Source of the DNA: a virus
Direction: 5' to 3' (one strand)
IMG/VR virus record: IMGVR_UViG_3300008050_000019
Length of the DNA: 24,883 nucleotides
Positions 920-24,883 of the stretch are shown here, piece by piece. Numbering within the stretch: position 1 is the stretch's first letter; every line of letters begins with the position of its first letter. The position numbers and the translations under genes were made by a program. The notes beneath the pieces are model-generated. The model was not told the DNA's origin and did no database searches. It saw nothing but the letters and a program-made list of their open reading frames with translations.

Positions 920-928
920 CTGTTATCC

Positions 929-1207: not shown

Positions 1208-1264
1208 AGTCCTAATCTTAATTATTGTAGTAAGAAAAGTAAAGCCAAAATTATGGCTATGTCA

Positions 1265-3633: not shown

Positions 3634-3666
3634 TATCTATTATATATAATCCCCTCTCTTTTTTAT

Positions 3667-5222: not shown

Positions 5223-5223
5223 A

Positions 5224-8007: not shown

Positions 8008-8039
8008 AAAGAATTATACACTATAATGTAATAAGTTAT

Positions 8040-10530: not shown

Positions 10531-10535
10531 TTGAC

Positions 10536-12431: not shown

Positions 12432-12489
12432 ATTTATATTATACCACATATGTGAATGCAGTTTACAATAAGTTATATAAAATTTATTC

Positions 12490-13218: not shown

Positions 13219-13224
13219 ATCTAT

Positions 13225-13482
13225 CTACCTTTCTTCACGGTATTTTTTGAGCCGCTGACGTACACAAACTGCCATTTCTTTTTCTTTTTCAAGAACTGGA
13301 GCAGCGTCATGAACATAATCACATTTCATACATACCCACGAAAAATCATTCTGGTCCGTAATTAATGCTAGTCCATGGTGAATACCATTCTCAGAAACTT
13401 TGTCATGCCCAAATTTGCAAGGGTGCTTAAGCCACATAACTAAGATCTTAAATGGCTTTAATAAAAATTCTAGTTTAGTCAT
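13225..13482 (-). CDS. Small zinc-ribbon-like protein (85 aa), paralog of 13534..13740
   Basis: Shares W(L/W)x(H/D)PCKFGH...W.C..C.Y.H with the adjacent gene. Confidence 0.5.
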   Translation of the reverse strand: MTKLEFLLKPFKILVMWLKHPCKFGHDKVSENGIHHGLALITDQNDFSWVCMKCDYVHDAAPVLEKEKEMAVCVRQRLKKYREER

Positions 13483-13533
13483 TAGACTTTCTCTCTGCTG
13501 CTCTTTCTGCTATTCTTCTCTTTAATAGATCAT

Positions 13534-13740
13534 TTACAAACCGCTTATGATCATCTTTTTGTGTAAAAAAAGATCAGGTGAATGCAAGTAGTTGCATGTT
13601 TTGCATGCCCATGTATAATTAGCCTTGCTGCGGCTTGGAGTCCAGGGTTCAACATTACCTGACCTATCAAATGCATTATGGCCAAACTTACAAGGGTCAT
13701 CCCACCACTGCTGTAAATAATGAAACAACCTTTTTAGCAT
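13534..13740 (-). CDS. Small zinc-ribbon-like protein (68 aa), paralog of 13225..13482. Start at the ATG overlapping the upstream TAA (TAATG).
   Basis: QQWWDDPCKFGHNAF...WACKTCNYLHSPD. The track ORF begins at an upstream TTG. Confidence 0.45.
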   Translation of the reverse strand: MLKRLFHYLQQWWDDPCKFGHNAFDRSGNVEPWTPSRSKANYTWACKTCNYLHSPDLFLHKKMIISGL

Positions 13741-14579
13741 TAGACTTTTGAAAATAACCAAGGACGTGCATTCCAACCATGGCCAAGGTTATTCCACCCT
13801 CTCTTGTTTAGTCCATCTCTAAATGGCTTACCTACGCGTGTATTCTTGACAATTTTTCCGTCGACATCGGATGTCAGGAAATGGCCGAGTGTAAAGTATC
13901 TATTTTCTGCAGACCAGCAGCTTGCATGCAACAACTTGGCATCGTCTGTGGCATGAGCAAGAACCTTATCAAGCTCAGTAAATACATCACCTACGCCTTT
14001 ATGGCCCACTTTAGCGATATGTTCAACGATTTCGTAGGCTTGAATAACGTCGTATTTACCCTCAGCAGAAGGAACATGTTTCAGGTTAGTTAATCCTGAT
14101 AGATTTTTAAAATATTTAAAAATTTCAACTAGCTCCGCATTGATTTCGCAGTAGTGTACTTCGGCATTAGGGAAGTTTTTAGCCAAAATTATTGAAGAAA
14201 ACCCGGGGCCTGCACCCCAGTCGAAGATTCTCTTAGGATCATTAAACCCATTATCTCTTAACAGCTTAATCCCCCCACATGTAGTTGCGTGAGTCTGGCA
14301 TGTTGAAACCCCCAAAGAATCCCACTTGTAATTCGGGTGTGAATACAGCCACGCAGGATCACGTGTAGTTTTCCATTGCTCAAATAAAGCTTCTGCTGAG
14401 GGCTGCATATACTGCCGAAGTGTACTAAGATCGTCTGGATTCTTAAGTCGCCAATGTTTGGCGAACTCAGCTTCTGACATACCAAGTTTTGTTTTAGCAT
14501 ATTCACTAATTGCACCTTGCAAACCCGCATTGTTATTAACACCGAGTGATTTACATAAGCCGATCGTCTTTATTTTCAT
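13740..14579 (-). CDS. Class I SAM-dependent methyltransferase (not a DPPY/NPPF-type DNA amino-methyltransferase)
   Basis: Motif I IFDWGAGPGFSS followed by the acidic motif II (HYCEIN). Confidence 0.6.
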   Translation of the reverse strand: MKIKTIGLCKSLGVNNNAGLQGAISEYAKTKLGMSEAEFAKHWRLKNPDDLSTLRQYMQPSAEALFEQWKTTRDPAWLYSHPNYKWDSLGVSTCQTHATTCGGIKLLRDNGFNDPKRIFDWGAGPGFSSIILAKNFPNAEVHYCEINAELVEIFKYFKNLSGLTNLKHVPSAEGKYDVIQAYEIVEHIAKVGHKGVGDVFTELDKVLAHATDDAKLLHASCWSAENRYFTLGHFLTSDVDGKIVKNTRVGKPFRDGLNKRGWNNLGHGWNARPWLFSKV

Positions 14580-14619
14580 ATAAGAAATTATACTACAAAT
14601 CGAGTATAATTTACACGTT

Positions 14620-15594
14620 TTAATTACTTAAAAATCGCCTGGGCTTCATTCCCTGGATTTTCTTTAACAGTGCGACATCTCTCGTCCAGGGCACTGCACA
14701 TTCTTTTGCACAGAGAAAGTCTTTTTTAGTCATACTACCAACGTCATCGAACTTTTTTAAATCCAAGATCTTTACTGGAATATCATATAATGATAATAAT
14801 TTCGCAATTCTTTGCCACTCTTTCTCTTGCATGTCACTATCAAGTGCCAGAATAATGGGGGTTTTGTGCTTGTAAATTTGAAAAAATAATCTAGAATCCT
14901 CAGCCAAACTTGAACCAAGTAATGTTGTTGCGTTATCATCACATTTCGTTAAGTCAAATGGTCCTTCAACAAGCGTTAGCTCTTTACTCCAGTCAATATT
15001 AATCTCATTGAAAATTATTGCCTTTTTTTGCTGATCACAATTCATATATTTACGAAATGGCTTTTTCTCAAGTGATCTTGCTGTATAGAAGTTAAGTGAG
15101 CCCTCTGAGGAGTATGACAGCATGATCACTCTATCTTTTAGATCTGGATCAGATGAGATTCCGAATTTGAAATACCAAAGATCTCTCTCTGTTAAACCAC
15201 GCCGCTTTAAATATGTAATCGCTCTCTGTATTCTCGGGTCAACAGAGTTGCTCCTAATTGCGAGCATTCTATACCCTTCTGGCATTTGAAGTTGTTTTTC
15301 TACTTCTTGTTCGTCTATCAACGTAGAAAAGTTCTGGCTTGAAAATTTCGTTATATATTCATGAATGTGCTGCTGTGAGCGGTACATTTTAAGTACCTTA
15401 ATCAGCTTTCCCCGCATGCCGCAAACCCAACAATTGATGCGATCGTCACTAACTCTTATTGCAAGCTTCTTTTTTCCTGAGCCTCTACACTTTTCTGATG
15501 GGCACTTAATCGCTATATTTTTTCCATCTCTAGAAAACTCAGTAGCACCAAAAACTTTTTTTATGAATCTAATTTTCTCGTCGAGAATTGACAT
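14620..15594 (-). CDS. DNA primase (T4 gp61/DnaG-like): N-terminal zinc ribbon plus TOPRIM domain
   Basis: Zinc ribbon CPSEKC...CWVCG. TOPRIM motifs LVEGPFD (E.G..D) and LALDSDMQ (DxD). Confidence 0.7.
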   Translation of the reverse strand: MSILDEKIRFIKKVFGATEFSRDGKNIAIKCPSEKCRGSGKKKLAIRVSDDRINCWVCGMRGKLIKVLKMYRSQQHIHEYITKFSSQNFSTLIDEQEVEKQLQMPEGYRMLAIRSNSVDPRIQRAITYLKRRGLTERDLWYFKFGISSDPDLKDRVIMLSYSSEGSLNFYTARSLEKKPFRKYMNCDQQKKAIIFNEINIDWSKELTLVEGPFDLTKCDDNATTLLGSSLAEDSRLFFQIYKHKTPIILALDSDMQEKEWQRIAKLLSLYDIPVKILDLKKFDDVGSMTKKDFLCAKECAVPWTRDVALLKKIQGMKPRRFLSN

Positions 15595-15623: not shown

Positions 15624-17246
15624 TTATCTCATTTTGTCTTTTACTTTTTTGAGTACTGTGGCCCTGTCTTGCCTGTACTTCTCCTTGTTTTTTAATGTTT
15701 TGCTAGCTCTTAATTCAAGCTGTGATCGTGGAAATTCTGTTGTCCACCGTTTTAGGATGTCATCTGGAGTATCTCTTTTGCCAGCCAGCGTCATTTGAAT
15801 CATGGAGTCTTTACTAGCGTCTGCTTTATCAGCTAAAACACGTATAACATCAGGTGTTAAACTTAGATTATATACTACGCTCATTCTCACTTCCCTAGAA
15901 TGATCACCTGCTAAAGCGAGAAGTATAGATTCAGATGCTAAATTATTTGCTGCTACTTTTCTTCTAACAAGCTCTGATGAATCACTTGCTAAAGTGTTAA
16001 GTATCTCTAAAGAGACTTTCTGATTACTTGCAGTCGTGGCTCTAACTATTTCATCTTCAGCCGTCGAAAGGCTTTCCAGCACGTCAATAGGCGTGTTGAT
16101 ATTTATTGCGAGATGATCTTTTACATAAGTGTTATCAGATGATAACGCACGAAGAGTAGATTGCCCCGTCCGATGATTAAGCGCGACCATGGCTCGGACG
16201 TCGTCCGAATCATCATTTTTAAGCATATCGAGTACCTCAGGAGAAGCATTCCAGCTATCTGCTACGGCCCGTCTAACTTCTTCGTCTGTAGAACTAGCAG
16301 CTTTAACAAGACGCTCATGTGAAGATACTTTAACGTAATCGGTGACTTCTGGCGAAAACTTATACTCTTTCTTGCCCTCTAATGTATCAAGCAGATCAAA
16401 AAATGCATCATATCGAAGCCCGCTGGTAAACTTTTTGAACCTTGGAACAGACGTAATCGCTTTCTTAACGTCTCTTAAAGCAGGATGCTCATGATTCTTT
16501 TTTGTATGATTTTTAATCGCAGTACTAATCTCATCCCAATCGTCACCAAAAGCATCATAAAATTTAAACTTCTTATTGTTATGATCAACTGTTGTTTCAT
16601 TCGGCGCGGATGGTTGAATAACTCCGCCCTTAACGCCAATTGACCACTTCTTCTTCGTATTGTGTTTATCAATTACATAGAAAAGAATTGTATTGTTTAA
16701 AATGTAACTATAAAATAGATTCTCGCCCTTTGTTCTTGCAGTACACCAAACCGTACCACGTCCAATAGAGCATGATGCGTCAACACTTCTTGGCATAAAT
16801 ACAACAAAGTCCTCGGATTCATAAATGTTATCCGCGTCCTTGGCTGCAGCATCATGATCTATCTTAGAGTCTCCAGGAAGCTCTTCAAGCTTCCGGTGGA
16901 GATCGCCAGGTGTCTTATAATTGTTAATATCAGCGTCTTTACCTTTAAGTTTCTGCTTGTTTTTAGCCTTATCAAATGAAATAATGAGAGGTGAAATGTC
17001 TCTGAGAGGTTCATTATTTGAACGTGAAACACGTTCAAGCCACATAAGATATTGCTTTAATTTAGCTTGAGGAAGAACTTGAAGTTTTCCGAAGACTTCA
17101 TCCCATTCTTCTGGAGCCCTGTTAGACTTTTCTTTGATATCATCAATGGTACCCTCACTAAGAAGCTTAATTGCATATTCTAAAAGTTTGTTTTCGCTAG
17201 AGGCACCAGAGATCATCTCTCTAAGTTCAGAAATTTTGACAAGCAT
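15624..17246 (-). CDS. Leucine-rich-repeat-variant (LRV)/HEAT-like repeat protein (540 aa). Its N-terminal ~85-aa domain is duplicated at 24361..24690.
   Basis: C-terminal ~23-aa repeats of the form D...VR..VA.N......L..LA.D. N-terminus MLVKISELRE...EEWDEVFGKLQVLPQAKLKQYLMWLERVSRSNNEPLRD is ~70% identical to the upstream fragment. Confidence 0.6.
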   Translation of the reverse strand: MLVKISELREMISGASSENKLLEYAIKLLSEGTIDDIKEKSNRAPEEWDEVFGKLQVLPQAKLKQYLMWLERVSRSNNEPLRDISPLIISFDKAKNKQKLKGKDADINNYKTPGDLHRKLEELPGDSKIDHDAAAKDADNIYESEDFVVFMPRSVDASCSIGRGTVWCTARTKGENLFYSYILNNTILFYVIDKHNTKKKWSIGVKGGVIQPSAPNETTVDHNNKKFKFYDAFGDDWDEISTAIKNHTKKNHEHPALRDVKKAITSVPRFKKFTSGLRYDAFFDLLDTLEGKKEYKFSPEVTDYVKVSSHERLVKAASSTDEEVRRAVADSWNASPEVLDMLKNDDSDDVRAMVALNHRTGQSTLRALSSDNTYVKDHLAININTPIDVLESLSTAEDEIVRATTASNQKVSLEILNTLASDSSELVRRKVAANNLASESILLALAGDHSREVRMSVVYNLSLTPDVIRVLADKADASKDSMIQMTLAGKRDTPDDILKRWTTEFPRSQLELRASKTLKNKEKYRQDRATVLKKVKDKMR

Positions 17247-17273: not shown

Positions 17274-18329
17274 TTATGACAGTTCTGTCATTGACTTAAT
17301 TTTCCAAATTGTCGTAGCAAAACCAAAATCACTTTTATCAATTTCACCCATGTATGCCGTATTAAGCTCTGGCATCGGATGCTTATCAGGATGCCATCCC
17401 CAGCAATAACATCTGTGTTTTTTGCCAGTTGGTCCCATGATATTAAGCAACAAATAAGGCTTCTTCGTCTTTGTTACTTTTTTAATAGCTTCATCTAAAA
17501 TAAACCAGTGCAGCCCTTTCTTCTTATAGTCATCGATAGTAGGAACGCCGATTTTATCTAACCTTGTTCTGACTTTATCTGAAATTATTAGACTGAGATC
17601 GGTTGACCCAACAAGCTCCTTCAGTTGTCTAATCCATGTAGGCTTATCCCACTCAACAACACCTTGAGACTCTTGTAGGCGACGTTCAAAAACATCACGC
17701 CCTTTCTTTACAGATTTAAGCTTGTGAAGCTGTAAATCAGAATCTTCATAGTCATTGCCCGTCAACACATCAAACATCTGATGATAGTTAGAAAATGTCT
17801 TTCCTTCGCCCACAATACCTGTCGAGTCAAATGCACCTATCTGGATCAGATGTTGCATGGCGCGTTTGTTAAATTTTGAATGTTTCCAGCTTCCGTCTTC
17901 ATTCCATAACAAATCATGAACAGAGTTATAGGGCCTGTTTTCTATAATTTCGTCAACAGCCGCTTCACCCACTGCCTTCACAGTCAAAAATGACGGCATG
18001 AACTTTTTGCCAGGCATTATAGTCCATTTTTTTGTTGCGTGGTTAATATCGACCTTCGTTATTTCATAGCCGAATGCACGTAGTTCACCAATTGCCTTCG
18101 ATCGCTTATCAGGATGGCTAGATTGAGTCTCCATATATGCACATAGCCACTCTGATTCAAAGTGCGTAAGAAGCCAGGCGCACATATACGAATCGATTGC
18201 GTAAGATACAGCATGTGAATTAGACGTTAACAATCCATTGGCAAGATAGAATTGATGATCTGGGTGGTCAACTTCAAGATCATATGCTTGATGTTTTCCG
18301 ATGGATTTAAATGATTTAATTTTAGGCAT
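17274..18329 (-). CDS. dnaE: DnaE-type (Pol III alpha) polymerase C-terminal fragment, preceded by a split-intein C-half (intein-C, 37 aa)
   Basis: N-term MPKIKSFKSIGKHQAYDLEVDHPDHQFYLANGLLTSN matches the Ssp DnaE-c [36 protein letters not shown] (blocks F/G; terminal Asn; +1 Ser). The following SHAVSYAIDSYMCAWL..GYEITKVDIN...VKAVGEAAVDEIIENR...IQIGAFD matches DnaE KSHAAAYALVSYQTAWLK...ILPPDIN...AIKGVGEGPIEAI...SGAFD. Confidence 0.8.
   Translation of the reverse strand: MPKIKSFKSIGKHQAYDLEVDHPDHQFYLANGLLTSNSHAVSYAIDSYMCAWLLTHFESEWLCAYMETQSSHPDKRSKAIGELRAFGYEITKVDINHATKKWTIMPGKKFMPSFLTVKAVGEAAVDEIIENRPYNSVHDLLWNEDGSWKHSKFNKRAMQHLIQIGAFDSTGIVGEGKTFSNYHQMFDVLTGNDYEDSDLQLHKLKSVKKGRDVFERRLQESQGVVEWDKPTWIRQLKELVGSTDLSLIISDKVRTRLDKIGVPTIDDYKKKGLHWFILDEAIKKVTKTKKPYLLLNIMGPTGKKHRCYCWGWHPDKHPMPELNTAYMGEIDKSDFGFATTIWKIKSMTELS
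18219..18329 (-). mobile_element. Split intein, C-terminal half (intein-C) of the DnaE intein
   Basis: See the parent CDS: block F DLEVDHPDHQFYLANG, terminal ..TSN, +1 Ser. Confidence 0.75.
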
Positions 18330-18720
18330 TGCGTTTCCAAATATCTCGAGCCCTTAGCTCAGTTTCTAAAAGCTTGAATTTCTTGTCATATTGGATATAT
18401 GAGTTTATGACATAGCCGCTTGATCCTGCGGCCATCACGTCATTAAGTAGTCCGGATAGCTTCTTTTCGCTCAAGTTGTCCAATTGAGCGCAAGCTGTTG
18501 CATAATTCATAGCGAACTCATGAAACTCAATTTCATTGTCAGGAAGATGAAATTCCCATTTTCGTAATGTAAAGATTATATTACGAATCTTACGTAGACG
18601 CTCTTGTTTACGATGGTCAGCAAATAAAGCTAACGCTAATCCAGAAATTGCTGGCACACCAATAAGCATAATAATATCCATTATTATAATATTAACGCAG
18701 GTATGAAAAAATATACACAT
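18322..18720 (-). CDS. Membrane protein (N-terminal TM segment IIMLIGVPAISGLALALFA plus cytoplasmic domain)
   Basis: ATG ORF overlapping the DnaE-C start by 8 nt. Hydrophobic N-terminus. Confidence 0.5.
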   Translation of the reverse strand: MCIFFHTCVNIIIMDIIMLIGVPAISGLALALFADHRKQERLRKIRNIIFTLRKWEFHLPDNEIEFHEFAMNYATACAQLDNLSEKKLSGLLNDVMAAGSSGYVINSYIQYDKKFKLLETELRARDIWKRNA

Positions 18721-19032
18721 TTATGAATCATACGTTTTATCAAATGCTGCCCAACGATCAGTCATAATAAGATAGATGCGGTATCGCTCTACTGTGTACT
18801 GCTGATTTTTTAAATAGTACATCACAGAAATCTCTGATTGGCCATCATAATATACTGCTGCGGGACCATCTTCCCTATGCAAGTTATCATACACGTAATA
18901 GAACTCTGATATTTTGTCACCGTTTCTTTCGAAAAACGTAGTTGCAGGGCCATCTACCCTATGCAAATCGTCTTGCTCATAATGCTTTAAACTGTATAAT
19001 GAGCCATCATACCAGTATTTTCTAATAATCAT
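18721..19032 (-). CDS. MORN-like repeat protein (HRxDGPA repeats), family member 1
   Basis: Repeats LHRVDGPATTFFERNG / LHREDGPAAVYYDGQ. C-terminal YRIYLIMTD...KTY motif shared with the family. Confidence 0.6.
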   Translation of the reverse strand: MIIRKYWYDGSLYSLKHYEQDDLHRVDGPATTFFERNGDKISEFYYVYDNLHREDGPAAVYYDGQSEISVMYYLKNQQYTVERYRIYLIMTDRWAAFDKTYDS

Positions 19033-19369
19033 AGGTTGACTCCAAACCTTTCATATTATCCATTACAAGGCAATAGATCCTGAAGTCAGATTCTGGCATC
19101 TCAACGTCCTGGATGCTATACCGCTTCTTAATTGGGCCACAAAGATCATACTCTATCATAGCTGGGCCATCTTCTCTGTGCAGTTGACCCTTTATATAAA
19201 AAGCAACAACCTCTATCTTACCGCCGAAATCATAGGTAACGTAGGCAGGTCCAGATAACCTATGATAAGTGCCGTCCTGGATCCATGCACATATTGAGGG
19301 TCGGTGATTATAATGTTTTACTATGTGAAGCTCGCTCATAAGTTCACCACTCTTAAAATAATGTATCAT
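19022..19369 (-). CDS. MORN-like repeat protein, family member 2
   Basis: YHRLSGPAYVTYDFGGK / LHREDGPAMIEYD. C-terminal DFRIYCLVMDNMKGLESTYDY. Confidence 0.6.
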   Translation of the reverse strand: MIHYFKSGELMSELHIVKHYNHRPSICAWIQDGTYHRLSGPAYVTYDFGGKIEVVAFYIKGQLHREDGPAMIEYDLCGPIKKRYSIQDVEMPESDFRIYCLVMDNMKGLESTYDY

Positions 19370-19400
19370 GCTATGAATTTCACCTTTATCATGATAAAGA

Positions 19401-19430
19401 ATATTAGGGCTCTGTGCCGCATATTGATAA
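19401..19430 (-). promoter_or_regulatory. Candidate sigma70-like promoter for 19022..19369: TTATCA-N18-TAATAT (minus strand), followed by an AGGTGA RBS
   Basis: Minus-strand reading of the 182-nt intergenic region: ttatcaatatgcggcacagagccctaatattc...aaaggtgaaattcatagcATG. Confidence 0.3.
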
Positions 19431-19460
19431 TATCACATTCTAACCGCTGATATCAATTGC

Positions 19461-19482
19461 GCATACGCAAGCATACGCAAGC
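19461..19482. repeat. Tandem direct repeat (gcatacgcaa)x2 in the largest intergenic region
   Basis: gcatacgcaagcatacgcaagc read directly. Confidence 0.6.
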
Positions 19483-19551
19483 TCTTTTCTAGTATATTTT
19501 AATAGGTATAGCATATGGTTACCATAGAAAATAATCTGCGTTCTAGAAATG

Positions 19552-19857
19552 CTAGCGCTCTAACCAAGATTTTGCATAGGAGAGATACTCAGCATCTTTC
19601 TTGATTCTTTTCTCTGTTATATAAATGCTATACGCAGAAGCAAGTGATATGTTCTTCCACATTTTAAATGTGGTACCTGTGTGTGTATTTGTATAGCTTT
19701 TACGTGACCATAAATTGTAGAATGGTGATGTACAAAAAAACCCTGCTTCTTTGATTTTGCGGATGGCATGGTACTTTTTTATTAAGTATGATGTTGTGAT
19801 GATAGCGGTACCTACACATACTACCACCACACAAGAAGCTATTATTGGATCAATCAT
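19552..19857 (-). CDS. Membrane protein (101 aa, N-terminal TM segment)
   Basis: MIDPIIASCVVVVCVGTAIITTSYLI hydrophobic N-terminus. Confidence 0.5.
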   Translation of the reverse strand: MIDPIIASCVVVVCVGTAIITTSYLIKKYHAIRKIKEAGFFCTSPFYNLWSRKSYTNTHTGTTFKMWKNISLASAYSIYITEKRIKKDAEYLSYAKSWLER

Positions 19858-19963
19858 TATTCTCTCTTACTCTTTTTTCCCACTCTTCTACCGGGTTAGG
19901 GATAACTGCTGCGAATATAAACGCCCCAATCAGTAAAAGTGTTATTAATGTAAATCTAAACAT
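19850..19963 (-). CDS. Small single-pass membrane peptide (37 aa), not in the ORF track: MFRFTLITLLLIGAFIFAAVIPNPVEEWEKRVRENND
   Basis: ATG at 19963. Its TGA stop overlaps the ATG of 19552..19857 (ATGATTGA). It fills the gap between flanking genes. Confidence 0.35.
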   Translation of the reverse strand: MFRFTLITLLLIGAFIFAAVIPNPVEEWEKRVRENND

Positions 19964-20225
19964 ATGAATCCTCTAACCCTTTAAAATTTCCAACCATGAG
20001 ACAATGTAAGCGAAACTCATATGGCGACAAAGCATGCCCGCGGTAATAGTAACCAATGTCTCCAAGTGCTCCATTAAAATGAAATATTTTAACTGCCGGT
20101 CCATCTTCTCTGTGTATGATACCATCTATCATATAAGTATGAGAATACACAGGGCCAAAGTCCCTGTTCACAGGTGTGGTATTCCAATAATTGATAGTTA
20201 ACGTCTTCACAAATGTGTTATCCAT
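19956..20225 (-). CDS. MORN-like repeat protein, family member 3. Start at ATG 20225 (the track ORF begins at an upstream GTG).
   Basis: MDNTFVKTLTINYWN N-terminus parallels MLNTFTRTLTINYWH of member 4. IHREDGPAVKIFHFNG. C-terminal EFRLHCLMVGNFKGLEDSY. GGGTGG RBS 7 nt upstream. Confidence 0.6.
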   Translation of the reverse strand: MDNTFVKTLTINYWNTTPVNRDFGPVYSHTYMIDGIIHREDGPAVKIFHFNGALGDIGYYYRGHALSPYEFRLHCLMVGNFKGLEDSYV

Positions 20226-20285
20226 ATGTACCACCCATTATAAATTATAATACTATTAATTTCATTTTATCACATATTAGTAAAT

Positions 20286-20639
20286 TCATGTATATGTTTC
20301 ATATAAACCTTCTTCCCATGAATTTACTAAGCATAAAATTCTATAGGTTTTTTTTGATATTCTATGGCCGTTGATATAATATACCTTACTTGCAGGTAAC
20401 ACATTACCGCTAAGATCAAAAGTAAGTGAAGCGGGGCCACATTCGTTATGAAGGCCGCCGTGCCTATAAAATTTTTCTTGATGAACAGCCCCGGTAGTAT
20501 AATAACTGACTTGGGCAGGACCTGTAGTACGATGTATGATTGCATCAAGCCAATACTCTTTGGTGCAAACTTTGTTAAAGTTTCTGGAGTGGGGATGCCA
20601 GTAATTTATTGTTAATGTGCGTGTAAATGTGTTTAGCAT
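20286..20639 (-). CDS. MORN-like repeat protein, family member 4
   Basis: IHRTTGPAQVSYYTTG / HNECGPASLTFDLSGN. C-terminal YRILCLVNSWEEGLYETY. Confidence 0.6.
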   Translation of the reverse strand: MLNTFTRTLTINYWHPHSRNFNKVCTKEYWLDAIIHRTTGPAQVSYYTTGAVHQEKFYRHGGLHNECGPASLTFDLSGNVLPASKVYYINGHRISKKTYRILCLVNSWEEGLYETYT

Positions 20640-20851
20640 GGCACATCACAAATAAGAATATCGGAATTAATCGTACTCGAAGAAACAATGTACTTATCAA
20701 TTTTATTTTGTGTAACACTCCAAACTACAACATCTCCAAGTGAATGTGGGTCCCTGAGATCATTGTTGGATAAGAAGCTCAGAGGAATGTAGTATTCTTT
20801 GAGGAACGTTTCGTAAATAAGCTGGCCAATTTTAAATTCTGATACTAACAT
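20633..20851 (-). CDS. Small paralog family protein 1 of 6 (MLxSEFKIGQLIYD...YYIPL N-terminus)
   Basis: MLVSEFKIGQLIYETFLKEYYIPLSF. Confidence 0.55.
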   Translation of the reverse strand: MLVSEFKIGQLIYETFLKEYYIPLSFLSNNDLRDPHSLGDVVVWSVTQNKIDKYIVSSSTINSDILICDVPC

Positions 20852-20872
20852 AATGCCTCACAAATGATAACA

Positions 20873-21061
20873 TCATTCCTTACAGATAGATTGTTGATTT
20901 CGTATATCAGTTGCCTGAGCGTTTACGACCCAAACTGTCACAGTGTATGACTCTATGAAGTGGGTCATAAGCAGTGATGGCTTAAAAGTCAGAGGAATGT
21001 AGTAGGAATCATCGGGTTTGTCATAAATAAGCTGTCCAACTTTAAGTTCTGATGTTAACAT
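20873..21061 (-). CDS. Small paralog family protein 2 of 6
   Basis: MLTSELKVGQLIYDKPDDSYYIPLTF. Confidence 0.55.
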   Translation of the reverse strand: MLTSELKVGQLIYDKPDDSYYIPLTFKPSLLMTHFIESYTVTVWVVNAQATDIRNQQSICKE

Positions 21062-21267
21062 AATGTCTCACAAACTACATAATCTCTTTCAACAACGTGG
21101 TCCGCTATATTATAGTGTTCAGTGCGGAACCTTGTGATATTAAATACCACCACCTCAAAAACAGGTCCGTGGGGCAGGCTGATTGGTTTGATCTCCACTG
21201 GAACGTAATAAAACTTGCCGATTGAATCATAAATGAGCTGCCCGATCTTGAATTCTGATGCTAGCAT
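21055..21267 (-). CDS. Small paralog family protein 3 of 6 (start at the ATG; the track begins at an upstream TTG)
   Basis: MLASEFKIGQLIYDSIGKFYYVPVEI. Confidence 0.55.
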   Translation of the reverse strand: MLASEFKIGQLIYDSIGKFYYVPVEIKPISLPHGPVFEVVVFNITRFRTEHYNIADHVVERDYVVCETLC

Positions 21268-21482
21268 GTTGCACCGCAAATCACTTGATCATCTTCGACA
21301 GCAACTGGCGTTATATAATAACTTTCAATACTAAGATTTGTAACATTTAATACTGTCGCGCTAAAAGATTCTATGTAGTGTGTAACACACTCAGCCCTGT
21401 CGCCAATAAATAACGGAATATAATAGCATTCATTATACCCGTCATAAATAAGCTGCCCGATCTTGAATTCTGCTACTAGCAT
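21261..21482 (-). CDS. Small paralog family protein 4 of 6
   Basis: MLVAEFKIGQLIYDGYNECYYIPLFI. Confidence 0.55.
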   Translation of the reverse strand: MLVAEFKIGQLIYDGYNECYYIPLFIGDRAECVTHYIESFSATVLNVTNLSIESYYITPVAVEDDQVICGATC

Positions 21483-21709
21483 TAGGATGCCACTCTTAGT
21501 TCTGCTATGACAGTGTCATGTTTTAGCGTTACGTTAGTCATCGTGTAGGTTTGTGCGCCATTTTCCAAAGTTTTTATGGGACTCCGAAATACCCATACAC
21601 TCGCAACAAAAAAGCCCATATCATCGTAATAAGTCTCCAGCGGAATGTAGAAACATTTAAGAGCCCTATCGTAGATAAGCTGTCCAATGTTAAGTTCAGA
21701 TGTTAACAT
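21482..21709 (-). CDS. Small paralog family protein 5 of 6
   Basis: MLTSELNIGQLIYDRALKCFYIPLET. Shares the C-terminal DTVIAEL with member 6. Confidence 0.55.
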   Translation of the reverse strand: MLTSELNIGQLIYDRALKCFYIPLETYYDDMGFFVASVWVFRSPIKTLENGAQTYTMTNVTLKHDTVIAELRVAS

Positions 21710-21921
21710 TATATTACTACTAACTCCGCTATGACAGTGTCATTTCTTAATGATAGGTTAGTTATATTAAATATTACCGCCCTATTATCTGCAATTCTCC
21801 ATGCTGTTACAACATAGGCTGTCTCAGAGGAGTTAGTAGTATCAACTGATATAGGAATATAACAAAACTTGTGGACGCGATCATAGATAAGCTGATGGAC
21901 TTTGAATTCAGATAGCAGCAT
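21709..21921 (-). CDS. Small paralog family protein 6 of 6 (start at the ATG; the track begins at an upstream TTG)
   Basis: MLLSEFKVHQLIYDRVHKFCYIPISV...NDTVIAELVVI. Confidence 0.55.
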   Translation of the reverse strand: MLLSEFKVHQLIYDRVHKFCYIPISVDTTNSSETAYVVTAWRIADNRAVIFNITNLSLRNDTVIAELVVI

Positions 21922-21995
21922 ATTATTAAATGGCCTATTCAATTATAGGACATCTAATTTCATTTTAGCACGCTGTATAAAAATAATATAACTTA

Positions 21996-22235
21996 TCATT
22001 TTTTTCGTGTCCAATATCTATACGCACCAGGAAACGTAAGTATCATTCCAGCTACACTTAGTATAATCGATGCTATAATCAGTGCAATGAATAGCTCAGC
22101 TGTCATCGAGGGGCTCATTACTGATGTTCCGGCTACGCAGAACCCGCTTACATAAAAACCTGATGATGTCTGTGGTCGCTGCCACGATAGCCACACATAT
22201 CCATGCGAACGTAACAAGCATAGAAAGTGCGACAA
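21996..22235 (-). CDS. Small membrane protein. The track start is TTG at 22235. An alternative ATG at 22118 gives a 40-aa peptide MSPSMTAELFIALIIASIILSVAGMILTF...
   Basis: Hydrophobic TM segment. The start is ambiguous because the first in-frame ATG is at codon 40. Confidence 0.35.
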   Translation of the reverse strand: MSHFLCLLRSHGYVWLSWQRPQTSSGFYVSGFCVAGTSVMSPSMTAELFIALIIASIILSVAGMILTFPGAYRYWTRKK

Positions 22236-22252
22236 ATATTGCTAAAATCCCT

Positions 22253-22498
22253 TTAAGCATGGTTAACCTCGGTTTGCTCTATGTGATCAATAACATCATT
22301 AACGTGAACAAATTTTTTATCAAACTTTTCATGTGAATAATATTCCCCGTGATGCATATTAGCTGGATTCCACGCCCATCCGGCACGCTTAATCTTACGC
22401 TTTTTCATTTGAAGTGAATAGGCTGGCAAATTGCCTATGACGGTGACAACTCCTGTAATAGCAGCTATTGCACTTAATATTATACCTAATTCAACCAT
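22253..22498 (-). CDS. Small membrane protein (81 aa, N-terminal TM segment)
   Basis: MVELGIILSAIAAITGVVTVIGNLPAY. ATG start overlaps the upstream gene's end. Confidence 0.5.
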   Translation of the reverse strand: MVELGIILSAIAAITGVVTVIGNLPAYSLQMKKRKIKRAGWAWNPANMHHGEYYSHEKFDKKFVHVNDVIDHIEQTEVNHA

Positions 22499-23513
22499 TA
22501 TACATTTTCCCTATCCTTGTAACCCCAGGTTGTGGGTTTTTTAAACTTTCAAAGAGCTGTTCAAGACATTCTTTTTTAAATTCTTTTTTATTCCACTGAT
22601 CATACGAAATTCTAATTAACGTCCAGTTATGTTTCTCTATATGTTCATCGAGTAATTTATCCTTAAGCTGGATTTCGTCTAAATCTTGCGACTCAAATTT
22701 CTTTTGAAAATGTAAATCTCCATCAAATTCAAGATACACTCGAAGCTTGATATCACCGATGTCAACTTGTCTAAATTTAGACTTTGTAGGGAAAGTAACA
22801 CTTTTGACTCGCTGGCTGCGCTTAAAGCTATAACCCTCAATGCTGCTTACAATTTCGAATAAAGCAGTTTCTGGACGCGAAGTCCACCCGTTTATATATT
22901 TAACAACACACTTTTCATAAAACTCTTCCCAATTTTCTTCCCGCCACTTACGAAGCTGTTCTGTTCTTCTCTTTAAAATTTCTGGACGAGCAGATGTAAT
23001 CTTTGCTGTTTCCGATGATTTTTTTCTAAACTTCTCTGTTTTATTTAATGTGCCAAGAAGATCACTTCTACGCTGGCGTTCTTTATCATTTGACATAATA
23101 GAAGCAGAGACAGCTTTGCCCATTTTTTGTTTGTATTCTGACAAATCTGTACCAGCGTCATTTGCGCGCTGAATCCAGTCGCCATTCTTTTTATTTTGCT
23201 TGCTATAAGCATCAAATGAGCTGCTACATTTAACTGGCCCATGCTTTTCTATATACTCTGGTGCTGTCAAACCATGCTCCACCCTAATGTGGCGTGTTAG
23301 ACTCTTACATCTCCAACCGCATAATGCGCACATGACATATCCGACATTTAAAACAAGCTCTGAGTAGCATTCTACTTCATGAGCTTCTACAAGATCTGGA
23401 GTTCTTCCCCCCTTCCCACATTTCCCGCAACGATTTCTAGGTCGTTTTCTATTATTTTGTGCATTGGAAGCATTCTCCCGTCCATTACCCTGAATTTGTG
23501 ATCCATCGTGCAT
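22491..23513 (-). CDS. Candidate free-standing homing endonuclease: N-terminal Cys/His zinc-binding region plus C-terminal DUF559/Vsr-like (PD-(D/E)xK) nuclease domain
   Basis: CGKCGK...HEVEC...CALCGWRC zinc-finger-like N-terminus. C-terminal VDIGDIKLRVYLEFDGDLHFQ...DKLLDEHIEKHNWTLIRISYDQW resembles the DUF559/Vsr core (D...E.DG..H...D...L...GW.VIR). Its start overlaps the last 127 nt of the intein-N ORF. Confidence 0.5.
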   Translation of the reverse strand: MHDGSQIQGNGRENASNAQNNRKRPRNRCGKCGKGGRTPDLVEAHEVECYSELVLNVGYVMCALCGWRCKSLTRHIRVEHGLTAPEYIEKHGPVKCSSSFDAYSKQNKKNGDWIQRANDAGTDLSEYKQKMGKAVSASIMSNDKERQRRSDLLGTLNKTEKFRKKSSETAKITSARPEILKRRTEQLRKWREENWEEFYEKCVVKYINGWTSRPETALFEIVSSIEGYSFKRSQRVKSVTFPTKSKFRQVDIGDIKLRVYLEFDGDLHFQKKFESQDLDEIQLKDKLLDEHIEKHNWTLIRISYDQWNKKEFKKECLEQLFESLKNPQPGVTRIGKMYNG

Positions 23514-24349
23514 CTTACCTTTTGCCCTTCCTCTAGCTCGAACTCATATAGCTCGAGCATGCCGTGATCATGTCTTTGTAGTACTTCCACAAAGATGTCA
23601 CTCTTATTTCGCTCATCACGCGATTTAATATAGTCACCCGGCTTAATATCGCCGACGGTCGTCGTTTTAATGAGTTCTCCCTCATTTGTATATGTATTTA
23701 TACACTCAGAATGTAACAGAGTTTTATTAAAGCCGTACCCAGAAAATGCTGCAACTCTATCGAACAGACTCTCTGCGTCTGCTTTGCGAATTCCTCTTTC
23801 AACTGCGCCCTCGATAAATTGCTTTTCAAGTTTCTTAGCTTCTTCTTTCGCCTTTGACTTTCCAGACATTGACCTTTTTGTGATAACTTTTCTTAGCTTA
23901 TCACAATCGTCAAGATTCAGTCCACCTACAACATGACCAAGCTTCATTAGCTGTTCTTGGAAGATTACGTGACCGAATGTTTCTTCAAGAACCTCTTTAA
24001 CTAAAGGGTGCTCATACTCAACAGACGCTGGATCATTCTTTGCAGTAATGTATGTCTTATCAACCTTTCCTGTCAATGGGCCCGGGCGATAAATCGATGT
24101 TGCCGTTGCAATCTCAACGATATTCTTCGGTTCTAGATTAGAGAAAAACATCTGGGCGCCTTTGGCTGTGCATTGAAAAACACCACCCCAGTTACCTTCT
24201 TTGTAGATTTTATCGTAAACTGTTTTGTCTTGAAGATCTAAAACGTCAGGATGAAGATTGCTTTCGTACCAATTTTTAATGTCATTAAAAGCTGGATCAT
24301 TGATGGGCTCAGCTTTTTTGAGTATAGTTTTCTTTCTTAATTTAACCAC
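23387..24349 (-). CDS. dnaE: DnaE-type (Pol III alpha) polymerase internal fragment (fingers region) fused to a split-intein N-half. The fragment begins at GTG immediately after an in-frame TAA.
   Basis: GGVFQ...IYRPGPL...FGHVIFQEQLMKLG...FSGYGFNK matches DnaE AVFQLES...LFRPGPL...YGIILYQEQVMQIA...FAGYGFNKSH. After ...TLLHSE the sequence CINTYTNEGELIKTTTVGDIKPGDYI...RCTMDHKFRVMDGRML matches the Ssp DnaE-n intein blocks A/B, then a stop. Confidence 0.8.
   Translation of the reverse strand: MVKLRKKTILKKAEPINDPAFNDIKNWYESNLHPDVLDLQDKTVYDKIYKEGNWGGVFQCTAKGAQMFFSNLEPKNIVEIATATSIYRPGPLTGKVDKTYITAKNDPASVEYEHPLVKEVLEETFGHVIFQEQLMKLGHVVGGLNLDDCDKLRKVITKRSMSGKSKAKEEAKKLEKQFIEGAVERGIRKADAESLFDRVAAFSGYGFNKTLLHSECINTYTNEGELIKTTTVGDIKPGDYIKSRDERNKSDIFVEVLQRHDHGMLELYEFELEEGQKVRCTMDHKFRVMDGRMLPMHKIIENDLEIVAGNVGRGEELQIL
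23390..23704 (-). mobile_element. Split intein, N-terminal half (intein-N, 105 aa) of the DnaE intein
   Basis: Begins with Cys (CINTYT). Block B TMDHKF. Length and sequence parallel cyanobacterial DnaE-n split inteins. Terminates with a stop codon rather than continuing into an endonuclease domain. Confidence 0.75.
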
Positions 24350-24360
24350 ATTTTATTTTA

Positions 24361-24690
24361 TCACATTTCGTGGCCGAATTGAATATAAAGTGAAAACAAA
24401 TATAAAATCTCTAAAGGTCTCTTGCGCTCATTCAATACATAATCTCTTAAGGGTTCTTGATTTGAACGTGAAACACGTTCAAGCCACGTAAGATACTGCT
24501 TTAGCTTAGCCTGAGGGAGAACTTGAAGTTTCTCAAAAACTTCATCCCACTCTTCAGGGTGCCTATTAGATTTTGCTTTGACATCATCAATAACAGTCTC
24601 TTGTAAAAGATGGCCAATTAAGCTTCTTAAGTTACTTTCTACAATACAATTTGAAATAGCTTCTCTAAGGAACTTAACTTTAACCAGCAT
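24361..24690 (-). CDS. Truncated paralog of the N-terminal domain of the LRV-repeat protein 15624..17246 (109 aa; possible gene remnant or stand-alone domain protein)
   Basis: MLVKVKFLRE...DDVKAKSNRHPEEWDEVFEKLQVLPQAKLKQYLTWLERVSRSNQEPLRD. About 85% nt identity to 17020..17125 over the core, then it diverges and stops. Confidence 0.45.
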   Translation of the reverse strand: MLVKVKFLREAISNCIVESNLRSLIGHLLQETVIDDVKAKSNRHPEEWDEVFEKLQVLPQAKLKQYLTWLERVSRSNQEPLRDYVLNERKRPLEILYLFSLYIQFGHEM

Positions 24691-24735
24691 TGTCAATAAC
24701 TATTTTCATAGAAAGTTTCTTTCATCTCAGGTTTT

Positions 24736-24883
24736 TCATTTTTCATAAGTTGATTTTAAGCCTTTCATGTTTCCAATCAACAAACAATGAAGTCTAAATT
24801 CTTCTTTGGAAAGTTCTTTGTCATGAATCGAGAACTCCCTGTATTTAACATCCCCATTTTCACAGAAAGTTTCATAAGCTGGA
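24736..24883 (-). CDS. MORN-like family protein, C-terminal part (5'-truncated by the window edge)
   Basis: The minus-strand frame reads ...EEFRLHCLLIGNMKGLKSTYEK*, matching the family C-terminal motif ([DE]FR[IL].CL....KGLE..Y). Confidence 0.5.
   Translation of the reverse strand, partial: PAYETFCENGDVKYREFSIHDKELSKEEFRLHCLLIGNMKGLKSTYEK

What the first reader, a model, noticed from the sequence alone, without database searches (positions are those of the whole stretch)
17274..24349. Fractured DnaE-type polymerase gene joined by a cyanobacterial-DnaE-like split intein, with ~5 kb of unrelated genes between the halves
The ORF at 23387..24349 encodes Pol III alpha fingers-region motifs (RPGPL, FQEQ, GYGFNK). 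It then runs directly into an intein N-half and stops: the intein segment starts CINTYT..., carries block B TMDHKF, and is 105 aa long. The ORF at 17274..18329 opens with a 37-aa intein C-half (..DLEVDHPDHQFYLANGLLTSN, then +1 Ser) and continues with the next DnaE segment (SHAVSYA...). Both halves resemble the naturally split Ssp DnaE intein, and the insertion point lies at or near the same GYGFNK|SH motif. A DUF559-like nuclease gene, six small paralogs, membrane proteins and MORN-like genes sit between the halves. This matches the 'fractured gene' arrangement (split intein halves flanking a free-standing endonuclease) reported from marine metagenomes, here in a phage replisome gene. The polymerase would have to be reconstituted by protein trans-splicing.
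Basis: partly seen in the sequence, partly recalled or inferred. Interest (0 to 1): 0.85.

Follow-up and report, generated by a model that had tools for sequence, protein, structure and literature searches.

The report
Split-intein-fractured phage DNA polymerase gene
A giant marine phage encodes its replicative DnaE polymerase in three separate genes, two of which end and begin with the halves of a split intein that should stitch them together; this layout was described in 2009, but this copy appears to use threonine instead of cysteine for the first splicing step.

Summary
ORF 24349..23387 (-) encodes the DnaE fingers domain plus an intein N-half. ORF 18329..17274 (-) encodes a 37-aa intein C-half plus the rest of DnaE. 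A Vsr-like homing endonuclease gene follows the N-half, and about 4.1 kb of unrelated small genes lie before the C-half.

Three corrections:
- The intein starts at Thr210, directly after GYGFNK, not at the Cys of CINTYT. It is 111 aa, and the spliced junction should read GYGFNK-SHAVSYA.
- The gene is in three pieces. The PHP+palm piece (727 aa) lies 3.6 kb upstream, across the closure of the same 308.6-kb contig. It is separated by a second homing endonuclease gene and has no intein.
- The insertion site is three residues from the cyanobacterial DnaE site, not identical to it.

This is the "fractured gene" arrangement of Dassa et al. 2009, who already reported three DnaE cases, so it is a new member of a known kind.

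One further result concerns the intein allele family at this site. Across 47 alleles, residue 1 is Ser in 19, Thr in 14 and Cys in 14, with about 11 switches on a tree. It co-varies with residue 53, which is His with Ser/Thr and Asn with Cys. All other catalytic residues are conserved. Splicing activity itself is untested.

The parts
23723..24349 (-). DnaE piece 2, N-extein (M1-K209): fingers domain. It starts about 4 residues after the KFDLLGL palm motif and ends ...AAFSGYGFNK. GTG start.
   Evidence: Pfam PF17657 E 7e-33. Aligns to E. coli DnaE 588-761 and Taq DnaE 642-819. 66 homologues, many with the same roughly 310-320 aa architecture.
23390..23722 (-). Split-intein N-half, 111 aa (T210-L320). 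Residue 1 is Thr (codon ACT, 23722..23720). Block B is T72-M-D-H75. R50-H51-D52-H53 motif. Stop codon TAG at 23389..23387.
   Evidence: PDB Npu/Ssp DnaE inteins E 2e-11; profile E 1e-18. 40% identity to Npu DnaE intein over 111 aligned residues. Register of residue 1 set by 47 aligned alleles and 102 intein-less relatives.
22491..23513 (-). Free-standing homing endonuclease gene, 340 aa. N-terminal C2H2-like finger (residues 28-45), Ros/MucR-type zinc finger (56-105), helical region, C-terminal Vsr-like nuclease (about 225-340). The long ORF overlaps the intein N-half by 127 nt in another frame. An alternative start at 23333 gives 280 aa, as called in the source assembly.
   Evidence: Pfam ROS_MUCR E 4e-7, RAP 3e-4. 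PDB 2jsp Ros E 0.002 / profile 3.7e-6. 13 of 60 homologues hit DUF559. AF2 model pLDDT 90.9, whose best PDB matches are E. coli Vsr 1VSR/1CW0, prob 0.99. Invariant D251, D264, G265, H268, F269, D285, R301. Homologues align from query residues 1-29, which supports the long form.
21996..22498 (-). Two small predicted membrane ORFs (22498..22253, 81 aa; 22235..21996, 79 aa, or 22260..22096, 54 aa). Cargo unrelated to DnaE.
   Evidence: ORF list and hydrophobic segments read from the translations. No Pfam or PHROG hit.
20633..21942 (-). Six tandem small paralogous ORFs (62-77 aa; consensus MLxSEFKIGQLIYD...YYIPL). Cargo of unknown function.
   Evidence: Alignment A1: 28-44% identity to the first copy, 9 invariant columns. 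No family hit.
18721..20639 (-). Four MORN-like small ORFs with the (L/I)HREDGPA motif (20639..20286, 20234..19956, 19369..19022, 19032..18721), plus a 101-aa membrane ORF (19857..19552). Cargo.
   Evidence: Translations. A paralogue upstream of piece 2 hits Pfam MORN_2 only weakly, E 0.003.
18322..18720 (-). 132-aa ORF with an N-terminal hydrophobic segment. Its stop codon overlaps the ATG of the intein C-half gene by 8 nt (aATGCCTAAa), which suggests translational coupling.
   Evidence: Sequence read; ORF list.
18219..18329 (-). Split-intein C-half, 37 aa: MPKIKSFKSIGKHQAYDLEVDHPDHQFYLANGLLTSN. Block F Asp and His are present; the terminal residue is Asn37.
   Evidence: Aligns over its full length with Npu DnaE IntC 4lx3_B, E 0.002. 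About 90 of 100 homologous C-pieces carry a 36-38 aa head ending TSN before Ser+1.
17274..18218 (-). DnaE piece 3, C-extein (S38-S351, plus the stop codon). Ser+1, then HAVSYAIDSY..., the end of the fingers, the HhH domain and the C-terminal region.
   Evidence: Pfam HHH_6 E 7e-12. Aligns to E. coli DnaE 757-892. The in-silico spliced product aligns without a gap across the junction to the naturally contiguous relative P0035, 57% identity.
24361..24696 (-). 111-aa ORF directly upstream of piece 2. It is a truncated paralogue (70% identity over 83 aa) of the N-terminus of the 540-aa HEAT/LRV protein at 17246..15624. It forms part of the 3.6-kb gap between DnaE pieces 1 and 2.
   Evidence: BLASTP E 4e-35.
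24736..24883 (-). 3' end of a five-repeat MORN-like gene that spans the closure of the contig. Upstream of it, outside the window, lie three more MORN-like ORFs, a 531-aa homing endonuclease gene, and DnaE piece 1 (727 aa, PHP+palm).
   Evidence: The contig ends overlap by 129 nt, 127 identical, and the overlap is unique. Piece 1 is P0080 on the same contig. The 531-aa ORF hits PHROG 3339 'homing endonuclease' at E 7e-74.

Best explanation
The locus is a 'fractured' replicative polymerase gene of an uncultivated phage of about 308 kb. DnaE is encoded in three co-oriented genes.

- Piece 1 (PHP+palm, 727 aa) lies off-window.
- Piece 2 (fingers, 209 aa) is fused to a 111-aa intein N-half.
- Piece 3 (314 aa) is preceded by a 37-aa intein C-half.

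Each break has a free-standing homing endonuclease gene immediately downstream of the upstream piece. Invasion by these endonuclease genes is the inferred cause of the fracturing.

After translation, the two intein halves are expected to associate and carry out class-1 protein trans-splicing. Thr1 would perform the N-O acyl shift at FNK|T. The acyl group would transfer to Ser+1. Asn37 would then cyclise. The product would be a 523-aa fingers-to-C-terminus polypeptide with the native GYGFNK-SHAVSYA motif.

That product would then work with piece 1 as a non-covalent two-subunit polymerase. Relatives exist that encode exactly these two proteins with no intein.

The roughly 4.1 kb of small genes between the endonuclease gene and the intein C-half is variable cargo. 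It has accumulated in the gap that trans-splicing makes harmless.

Shown: gene anatomy, homology, the conserved catalytic residues, and the existence of the contiguous form in relatives. Inferred: splicing activity, the use of Thr1, endonuclease activity, and association of piece 1.
For: - DnaE and intein homology.
- Splice-site register: 102 intein-less relatives read FNK|SHA, and 47 alleles have C, S or T directly after FNx.
- The in-silico spliced product aligns gap-free with the contiguous relative P0035.
- Catalytic residues are retained in all 14 Thr1 alleles. Block B (T/S)xxH is present in 47 of 47 alleles. The IntC ends TSN|S in about 90 of 100.
- Residue 1 switched about 11 times on a neighbour-joining tree. 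It co-varies with residue 53: His in 30 of 33 Ser/Thr alleles, Asn in 14 of 14 Cys alleles. This includes two Cys alleles nested among Ser/Thr ones. The pattern points to selection on the chemistry, and it echoes the His-containing NX motif reported for Ser1 inteins (PMC10189870).
- Piece 1 is on the same contig, which closes on itself.
- Endonuclease genes sit at both breaks.
- Relatives show the compact form, IntN piece then endonuclease then IntC piece (L059), as well as forms with different cargo (L060, L065).
- The same arrangement appears in three independent assemblies.
- The arrangement, including DnaE hosts and Vsr-like endonucleases, is described in PMC2677866.
Against: - No experiment shows splicing.
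- The papers read here name only Cys1 and Ser1 examples; Thr1 appears only in the definition of class 1. A Thr1 allele could therefore be slow or inactive.
- The window allele also has a Cys six residues downstream, at intein position 7.
- Three Thr1 alleles lack His53.
- A single-sequence AlphaFold model of the fused intein was unusable, pLDDT 40, so the active-site geometry was not checked.
- How piece 1 joins the rest is unknown.
Confidence: 0.75

Rival explanations
1. The intein starts at Cys216 (CINTYT). Splicing would then leave six extra residues (TLLHSE) inside the GYGFNK-SH motif.
For: Cys is the commonest intein nucleophile. The window allele does have a Cys there. Distances to block B are compatible with either start: 3 residues shorter or 3 residues longer than Npu.
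Against: That column reads K, G, L, E, V and other residues in relatives. Cys1 alleles have their Cys directly after FNx, in register with the window's Thr. Intein-less relatives have no six-residue insert. TLLHSECINT aligns position by position with the block A pattern C-x-x-[YF]-x-T-E-I-x-T of the Cys1 alleles.
Confidence: 0.06
2. The Thr1 intein no longer splices. The two halves only hold pieces 2 and 3 together non-covalently, as a domesticated dimerisation module.
For: No characterised Thr1 intein was found in the papers read. The first break in the same gene works without any intein, so this polymerase tolerates non-covalent assembly. Fragmented phage enzymes assembled by interaction domains are known (PMC3045599, listed).
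Against: Every residue needed only for chemistry is conserved in Thr1 alleles: block B Thr/His, the block F Asp/His, the terminal Asn, and Ser+1. Residue 53 tracks the type of nucleophile. That tracking would not be maintained in a dead intein.
Confidence: 0.12
3. The pieces are remnants of a decaying DnaE gene, or an assembly artefact, and the phage replicates with another polymerase.
For: The gene is interrupted twice, and the window ends at a contig end inside a repeat family.
Against: All three ORFs are intact and carry the catalytic motifs (PDIDSD and KFDLLGL in piece 1; RPGPL, FQEQ and GYGFNK in piece 2). Dozens of relatives at 45-66% identity keep the same piece boundaries. The identical locus occurs in three independent assemblies. 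The contig ends overlap uniquely, 127 of 129 nt.
Confidence: 0.03

Closest known systems
Fractured genes of Dassa, London, Stoddard, Schueler-Furman & Pietrokovski 2009 (PMC2677866), in particular their DnaE-1, DnaE-2 and DnaE-3 loci from GOS metagenomes
   Same: The host gene is split into co-oriented ORFs that end and begin with split-intein halves. A free-standing Vsr-like endonuclease gene sits after the N-half. The source is marine or aquatic and probably phage. DnaE is one of the hosts, with insertion points different from the cyanobacterial one.
   Different: Here about 4.1 kb carrying at least 13 unrelated small ORFs lies between the endonuclease gene and the C-half, rather than the C-half following directly. 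The endonuclease ORF probably overlaps the N-half instead of following a 27-51 nt spacer. A second, intein-less break exists. The N-terminal nucleophile is Thr. Whether the site equals one of DnaE-1, -2 or -3 could not be checked, because the supplement is not held.
Cyanobacterial naturally split DnaE inteins (Ssp, Npu DnaE-n/DnaE-c)
   Same: Same host protein and the same conserved motif region. They are the closest solved relatives: profile E 1e-17 to 1e-18, 40% identity, and a similar split point (IntN about 102-111 aa, IntC 36-37 aa).
   Different: The insertion site is three residues downstream (GYGFNK|SH versus AEY|CFNK). The nucleophiles are Thr1/Ser+1 instead of Cys1/Cys+1. The halves are 5 kb apart in one co-oriented gene run with an endonuclease gene, rather than at distant loci without one.
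Cysteine-independent split inteins and the NX motif (PolB16 OarG intein; Hoffmann et al. 2023, PMC10189870)
   Same: Hydroxyl nucleophiles at both junctions. A histidine about 22 residues before the block B His is present when residue 1 is Ser or Thr and absent when it is Cys.
   Different: The co-varying His53 is preceded by Asp, not Arg/Lys. The Arg/Lys-His pair is at positions 50-51 and is also kept in Cys1 alleles, so equivalence with the NX motif is unproven. This intein is split at the canonical position, not atypically. It uses Thr1 rather than Ser1.
Vsr-like 'EDxHD' homing endonucleases (I-Bth0305I; Taylor et al. 2011, PMC3239194)
   Same: A C-terminal Vsr-like nuclease fold with invariant Asp/His residues, and an association with fractured genes.
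   Different: The N-terminal DNA-binding part is a Ros/MucR-type zinc finger preceded by a C2H2-like finger, not NUMOD/HTH motifs. No sequence-level hit to 3R3P was obtained.
Intein-less genes split by free-standing endonuclease genes (the SbcD-like locus in Dassa 2009; Aeromonas phage gp43 and nrdA cases cited there and in PMC3045599)
   Same: The first break of this DnaE is piece 1, then an endonuclease gene, then piece 2, with no intein. Short non-homologous tails flank the break.
   Different: Here this break coexists with a split-intein break in the same gene. The tails of relatives resemble intein block A, so the break may be a decayed split intein rather than a primary intein-less invasion. 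This is an inference.

Membership tests
Fractured gene (Dassa et al. 2009) | One conserved enzyme encoded by two same-strand ORFs, the first ending in-frame with an intein N-half and the second starting with the intein C-half | tested here: met
Fractured gene (Dassa et al. 2009) | Free-standing endonuclease gene (GIY-YIG or Vsr-like) on the same strand, between the two intein halves | tested here: met
   ORF 23513..22491. Vsr-like fold; DUF559 hits in 13 of 60 homologues.
Fractured gene (Dassa et al. 2009) | Compact layout: a short non-coding spacer (27-51 nt), then the endonuclease gene, then the C-half directly | tested here: not met
   The endonuclease ORF overlaps the N-half by 127 nt (or starts 53 nt after it). 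About 4.1 kb of other ORFs precede the C-half. The compact layout is present in relative L059.
Class 1 intein (HINT domain, split) | Nucleophile (Cys, Ser or Thr) at intein residue 1 | tested here: met
   Thr210 (ACT), in register with C or S in 33 other alleles. Class 1 is defined as having Ser1, Thr1 or Cys1 in PMC5222942.
Class 1 intein (HINT domain, split) | Block B TxxH; block F Asp/His; C-terminal Asn followed by Cys, Ser or Thr at +1 | tested here: met
   T72-M-D-H75; YDLEVDHPDH...TSN37|S.
Class 1 intein (HINT domain, split) | Protein (trans-)splicing activity | not testable with these tools
   Indirect evidence only: conservation of the catalytic residues and co-variation of residues 1 and 53.
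Cyanobacterial DnaE split-intein allele | Same insertion point in DnaE (AEY|CFNK) | tested here: not met
   The window site is GYGFNK|SH, three residues downstream.
Cyanobacterial DnaE split-intein allele | Cys1 and Cys+1 | tested here: not met
   Thr1 and Ser+1.
Vsr-like / EDxHD homing endonuclease | Vsr-like nuclease fold with conserved acidic and His catalytic residues | tested here: met
   The top Foldseek hits are 1VSR and 1CW0, prob 0.99, TM(target) 0.54. Invariant D251, D264, H268, D285; E262 conserved at 90% or more.
Vsr-like / EDxHD homing endonuclease | Site-specific cleavage of the endonuclease-less or intein-less allele | not testable with these tools
Candidate target: the GYGFNK-SHAVSYA coding region of alleles like P0035.
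NX-motif Ser1 inteins (Hoffmann et al. 2023) | Conserved His preceded by Arg/Lys upstream of block B, specific to inteins with a hydroxyl nucleophile at residue 1 | tested here: inconclusive
   His53 is specific to Ser/Thr1 alleles (30 of 33, against 0 of 14 Cys1 alleles) but follows Asp. R/K-His51 is present in both groups. Structural equivalence was not established (one search failed).

The most novel reading that the evidence does not exclude
The window carries a functional, naturally split Thr1/Ser+1 intein, cysteine-independent at both junctions, that is a close relative of the Npu DnaE intein. It belongs to an allele family in which the first nucleophile has switched among Cys, Ser and Thr about a dozen times, each time with a matching Asn/His change at intein residue 53. 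If so, this family would be a natural series for working out how an intein active site is retuned from thioester to oxyester chemistry. It could also give the first characterised Thr1 intein and a source of redox-insensitive, canonically split inteins for protein engineering.
Probability: 0.3. Interest if true: 0.7.

Novelty: new member of a known kind. Interest (0 to 1): 0.5.

Why it matters
As a genomic arrangement this is a textbook-like example of something already described. It does add a complete view that the 2009 read-level data could not give: all pieces of one gene in one closed phage genome of about 308 kb.

The locus shows two stages of the published gene-breaking model side by side. 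One break is intein-mediated and one is intein-less. It also shows the predicted drift towards uncoupled halves, with variable cargo filling the gap.

The more useful result concerns the allele family. It contains dozens of natural Ser1 and Thr1 variants of a DnaE-type split intein, with a co-varying active-site residue. This makes the question 'what lets an intein use a hydroxyl instead of a thiol at position 1' directly testable by swapping two residues. It may also supply cysteine-independent split inteins, which protein chemists are actively seeking (PMC10189870; PMC13014065, listed).

Tried and rejected
- Megablast of 17000-24883 against isolated phages gave no match. tblastn found only distant DnaE genes at 37% identity or less, so no cultured relative or host could be named.
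- AlphaFold on the fused intein without an alignment gave pLDDT 40 and was unusable. The second structure job went to the endonuclease.
- Sequence and profile searches of the endonuclease against PDB found only the Ros zinc finger, not Vsr or I-Bth0305I. The Vsr link came only from the fold search and from DUF559 hits in homologues.
- A hairpin follows the intein N-half stop codon, as reported upstream of endonuclease genes in 2009. It is present (AAGCUC...GAGCUU) but no better than shuffled sequence, z -1.3.
- Promoter and terminator scans found 37 promoter-like sites against 28 +/- 5.6 expected, and 3 terminator-like sites against 4.5 expected. None was informative.
- A Pfam scan of the 50-aa tail of piece 1 found nothing. 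Its resemblance to intein block A rests on reading relatives' tails only.
- I considered the idea that VFQ-C in piece 2 is the footprint of a lost intein, because a relative has a split intein at VFQ|C. I dropped it because Cys is the commonest residue there in the family, 44 of 130.
- The supplement of Dassa 2009, needed to compare insertion sites and sequences of DnaE-1, -2 and -3, is not held.
- Literature searches for a statement on how rare Thr1 is found only generic definitions, 'Ser1, Thr1 or Cys1'.

Full report
**1. What is in the sequence**

All long ORFs in the window lie on the - strand.

ORF 24349..23387 (320 aa, GTG start) matches the Pfam DnaE finger domain at E 7e-33. It aligns to E. 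coli DnaE residues 588-761 and to Thermus aquaticus DnaE 642-819. Its last roughly 100 residues match Npu and Ssp DnaE intein chains at E 2e-11 to 1e-6.

ORF 18329..17274 (351 aa) matches HHH_6 at E 7e-12 and aligns to E. coli DnaE from residue 757 onward. Its first 37 residues align end to end with the Npu DnaE C-intein chain 4lx3_B at E 0.002 when queried alone.

A profile of 24 alleles of the N-half hits Npu-type DnaE inteins at E 1e-17 to 1e-18. It hits the gp41-1 intein at 6.5e-9. The joined halves are 40% identical to the Npu DnaE intein over 111 aligned residues. The rest agrees with the PDB alignments.

**2. Correction of the N-terminal splice junction**

Searches of the large protein collection returned 102 relatives with no intein at this site. 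All of them read ...GYGFN(K)|SHA(V)SYA....

The same searches returned 47 alleles that carry an intein N-half there. In all 47 the residue directly after FNx is C (14), S (19) or T (14). The distance from that residue to the next conserved positions is the same in all.

The window reads GYGFNK-TLLHSECINTY. Cys1 alleles read, for example, GYGFNA-CVHFSTEIDTY and GYGFNK-CLAFSELVNIY. The column holding the window's Cys carries K, G, L, E, V and other residues elsewhere.

The intein therefore begins at Thr210 (codon ACT, 23722..23720) and is 111 aa long. An in-silico spliced product made with this junction (523 aa) aligns without any gap across FSGYGFNKSHAVSYAIDSYMCAWLLT to P0035. P0035 is a relative that encodes fingers-to-C-terminus as one 510-aa protein (57% identity). 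The junction peptide to look for is GYGFNK-SHAVSYA, not HSE-SHAVSYA.

**3. Is a Thr1 intein likely to work?**

The other residues needed for class-1 splicing are all present in the window:
- block B, T72-M-D-H75;
- the block F Asp and His, in YDLEVDHPDH;
- the terminal Asn37;
- Ser+1.

Across the family, block B (T/S)xxH is present in 47 of 47 N-halves. About 90 of 100 C-pieces carry a 36-38 aa head ending TSN before Ser.

On a neighbour-joining tree of the N-halves, residue 1 changes at least 11 times by Fitch parsimony. It co-varies with intein residue 53. His is there in 30 of 33 Ser/Thr alleles (motif HDH). Asn is there in 14 of 14 Cys alleles (motif HxN). Two of the Cys/Asn alleles, P0002 and P0026, are nested among Ser/Thr/His alleles.

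Three Thr alleles in a basal clade have Asn and are exceptions.

This pattern is what one expects if the active site is retuned whenever the nucleophile changes. It recalls the histidine-containing NX motif reported as a signature of Ser1 inteins (PMC10189870). However, the flanking residues differ: Asp precedes His53, and the Arg/Lys-His pair is at positions 50-51 in both groups. I therefore do not claim identity with that motif.

Definitions of class 1 inteins include Thr1 (PMC5222942, PMC7765530). I found no characterised Thr1 example in the papers read. Activity remains an inference. I put it at about 0.7-0.75.

**4. The gene is in three pieces**

Piece 2 starts about four residues after the position of the palm motif KFDLLGL, and it has no intein C-half at its start. 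The window is the end of ENA contig k141_306648 (308,593 bp).

Using the PHP+palm protein of relative L059 as a query, I found P0080 (727 aa; PHP + DNA_pol3_alpha) at the other end of the same contig, on the same strand. The two contig ends overlap uniquely by 129 nt, with 127 identical. The assembly therefore closes on itself. Piece 1 lies 3,611 nt upstream of piece 2.

Piece 1 ends ...KFDLLGLETLRIIQRCIELILQR, followed by a 50-aa tail that is not DnaE. Piece 2 begins with an 18-aa head that is not DnaE.

A 531-aa ORF overlaps the stop codon of piece 1 by 4 nt. It hits PHROG 3339 'homing endonuclease' at E 7e-74. In the closest relative (L065), that endonuclease gene lies directly between piece 1 and piece 2. 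In L059, two unrelated reverse-strand genes lie there instead.

Relatives P0075 and P0035 share a longest-contig length (66,112 bp), so are probably from one contig. They encode exactly 'piece 1' and 'fingers-to-C-terminus' with no intein. A two-subunit DnaE therefore appears to be the working state of this clade.

The tails of piece 1 in relatives (...ECFENEEVLLTNGSWKRVGDL...TCYENDQILLSDGSYKRINDL) resemble intein block A. This break may be a decayed split intein whose remnants still mediate association. That is speculation; a Pfam scan of the tail found nothing.

**5. The endonuclease between the intein halves**

ORF 23513..22491 (340 aa) overlaps the intein N-half by 127 nt in another frame, and has AAAGGTAAG upstream of its ATG. 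The source assemblies call a 280-aa form starting at 23333. Many homologues align from query residues 1-29, which includes a C2H2-like finger. The long form is therefore probably real.

Residues 56-105 are a Ros/MucR-type zinc finger (Pfam E 4e-7; PDB 2jsp profile E 3.7e-6). Of 60 aligned homologues, 30 hit ROS_MUCR and 13 hit DUF559. D251, D264, G265, H268, F269, D285 and R301 are invariant.

An AlphaFold model built on that alignment has pLDDT 90.9. Its best PDB matches are E. coli Vsr endonuclease, 1VSR and 1CW0. Probability is 0.99 and TM-score 0.54 on the target, although E is only about 0.01.

This agrees with the 'Vsr-like' or EDxHD homing endonucleases described for fractured genes (PMC2677866, PMC3239194). 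The DNA-binding part differs from that of I-Bth0305I.

**6. The intervening genes**

Between the endonuclease gene and the intein C-half lie:
- two small membrane ORFs;
- six tandem paralogues of 62-77 aa;
- four MORN-like ORFs;
- two more membrane ORFs.

The last of these overlaps the ATG of the C-half gene by 8 nt. None has a family assignment.

Relatives differ at this position. L059 has nothing between the endonuclease gene and the C-half. L060 has five other small genes. L065 has at least seven. So this is variable cargo, not part of the mechanism.

It fits the step in the published model in which the two host-gene parts drift apart once trans-splicing makes their linkage unnecessary (PMC2677866).

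**7. Relation to the cyanobacterial intein**

The native junction of the Npu DnaE intein is AEY|CFNK (PMC3759424). That site lies between Tyr and the Gly-to-Cys position of the same motif. The window's site is GYGFNK|SH, three residues downstream.

The inteins are each other's closest characterised relatives, but they are not alleles in the strict sense. Dassa et al. made the same point for their three DnaE loci.

**8. Family context**

Against a full-length relative (P0104), the collected proteins show the following:
- recurrent break points near reference position 697, with no intein;
- about 59 N-halves and 104 C-halves near positions 888-895;
- further split-intein sites near 210, 480, 500-510, 630, 740-750 and 810.

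The sample is biased by my queries, but this DnaE lineage is clearly a hot spot for such elements. Contigs carrying these genes are often 130-308 kb, consistent with jumbo phages. No cultured relative was found.

**9. Verdict**

The finding is correct in substance and is a clean, complete example of a known arrangement, so it is a new member of a known kind. The parts worth follow-up are the Thr1/Ser+1 chemistry, the co-variation of residue 1 with residue 53 across a large natural allele series, and the coexistence of an intein-mediated and an intein-less break in one essential gene.

Noticed in passing
window 24736..24883 (-) and L062 12900-13390: The two ends of the 308,593-bp source contig overlap by 129 nt (127 identical, unique match), so the genome assembly closes on itself. 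A MORN-like gene with five near-identical repeats (YENGNV.YR.FYLH..HREDGPAYE) spans the junction.
   Followed up: yes
L062 8001-10184 and 10181-11776 (same contig, off-window): DnaE piece 1 (727 aa) carries a 50-aa C-terminal tail unrelated to DnaE. It is followed, with a 4-nt overlap, by a 531-aa homing endonuclease gene (PHROG 3339, E 7e-74). In relatives the tail looks like intein block A, so this break may be a decayed split intein.
   Followed up: partly
window 24361..24696 (-) versus 15624..17246 (-): A 111-aa ORF upstream of DnaE piece 2 is a 70%-identical copy of the first 83 residues of the 540-aa HEAT/LRV-repeat protein that follows DnaE piece 3. Relatives have full-length PcfJ/HEAT paralogues at both positions (L060, L061). 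The duplication brackets the fractured region and could promote rearrangement or confuse assembly.
   Followed up: partly
window 23387..23513 (-): The endonuclease ORF and the intein N-half ORF overlap by 127 nt in different frames. A similar overlap of 118 nt is seen in relative L060.
   Followed up: partly
window 1843..3633 (-): The 596-aa ORF contains a long internal duplication. Each copy starts with a twin-arginine-like segment (TTRRSFLKSMAAAMGTAATANPAKLAGVAK) and ends with ...TPWSATRMGDRKQWKGEDDFIDEAK. A homologue sits, inverted, between DnaE pieces 1 and 2 in relative L059.
   Followed up: no
window 13225..13482 (-) and 13534..13776 (-): Two adjacent small ORFs (85 and 80 aa) are paralogues. 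They share a ...PCKFGH... motif and a C-terminal Cys pair (W.C..C.Y.H).
   Followed up: no
window 20633..21942 (-): Six tandem paralogous ORFs of 62-77 aa with an invariant N-terminal ML..E....QLIY motif and no detectable family. They lie inside the gap of the fractured gene.
   Followed up: partly
relatives P0015, P0049, P0084, P0088: The same DnaE lineage carries split or contiguous inteins at several other sites: GRGS|AAGS in the palm, VFQ|C in the fingers, FINPLR|C, and others. One protein may carry an intein C-half at its start and an intein N-half at its end.
   Followed up: partly
window 239..15594 (-): The rest of the window encodes nucleotide-metabolism and sugar-modification genes. 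By reading the translations, these include a thymidylate-synthase-like protein, a dCMP-deaminase-like protein, a DHH/DHHA1-like protein, two NAD-dependent epimerase-like proteins and a Nudix-like protein. A DnaG-type primase at 15594..14620 was confirmed by search (PHROG 47, E 6e-29). All are on one strand, consistent with a large phage replication and nucleotide module.
   Followed up: no
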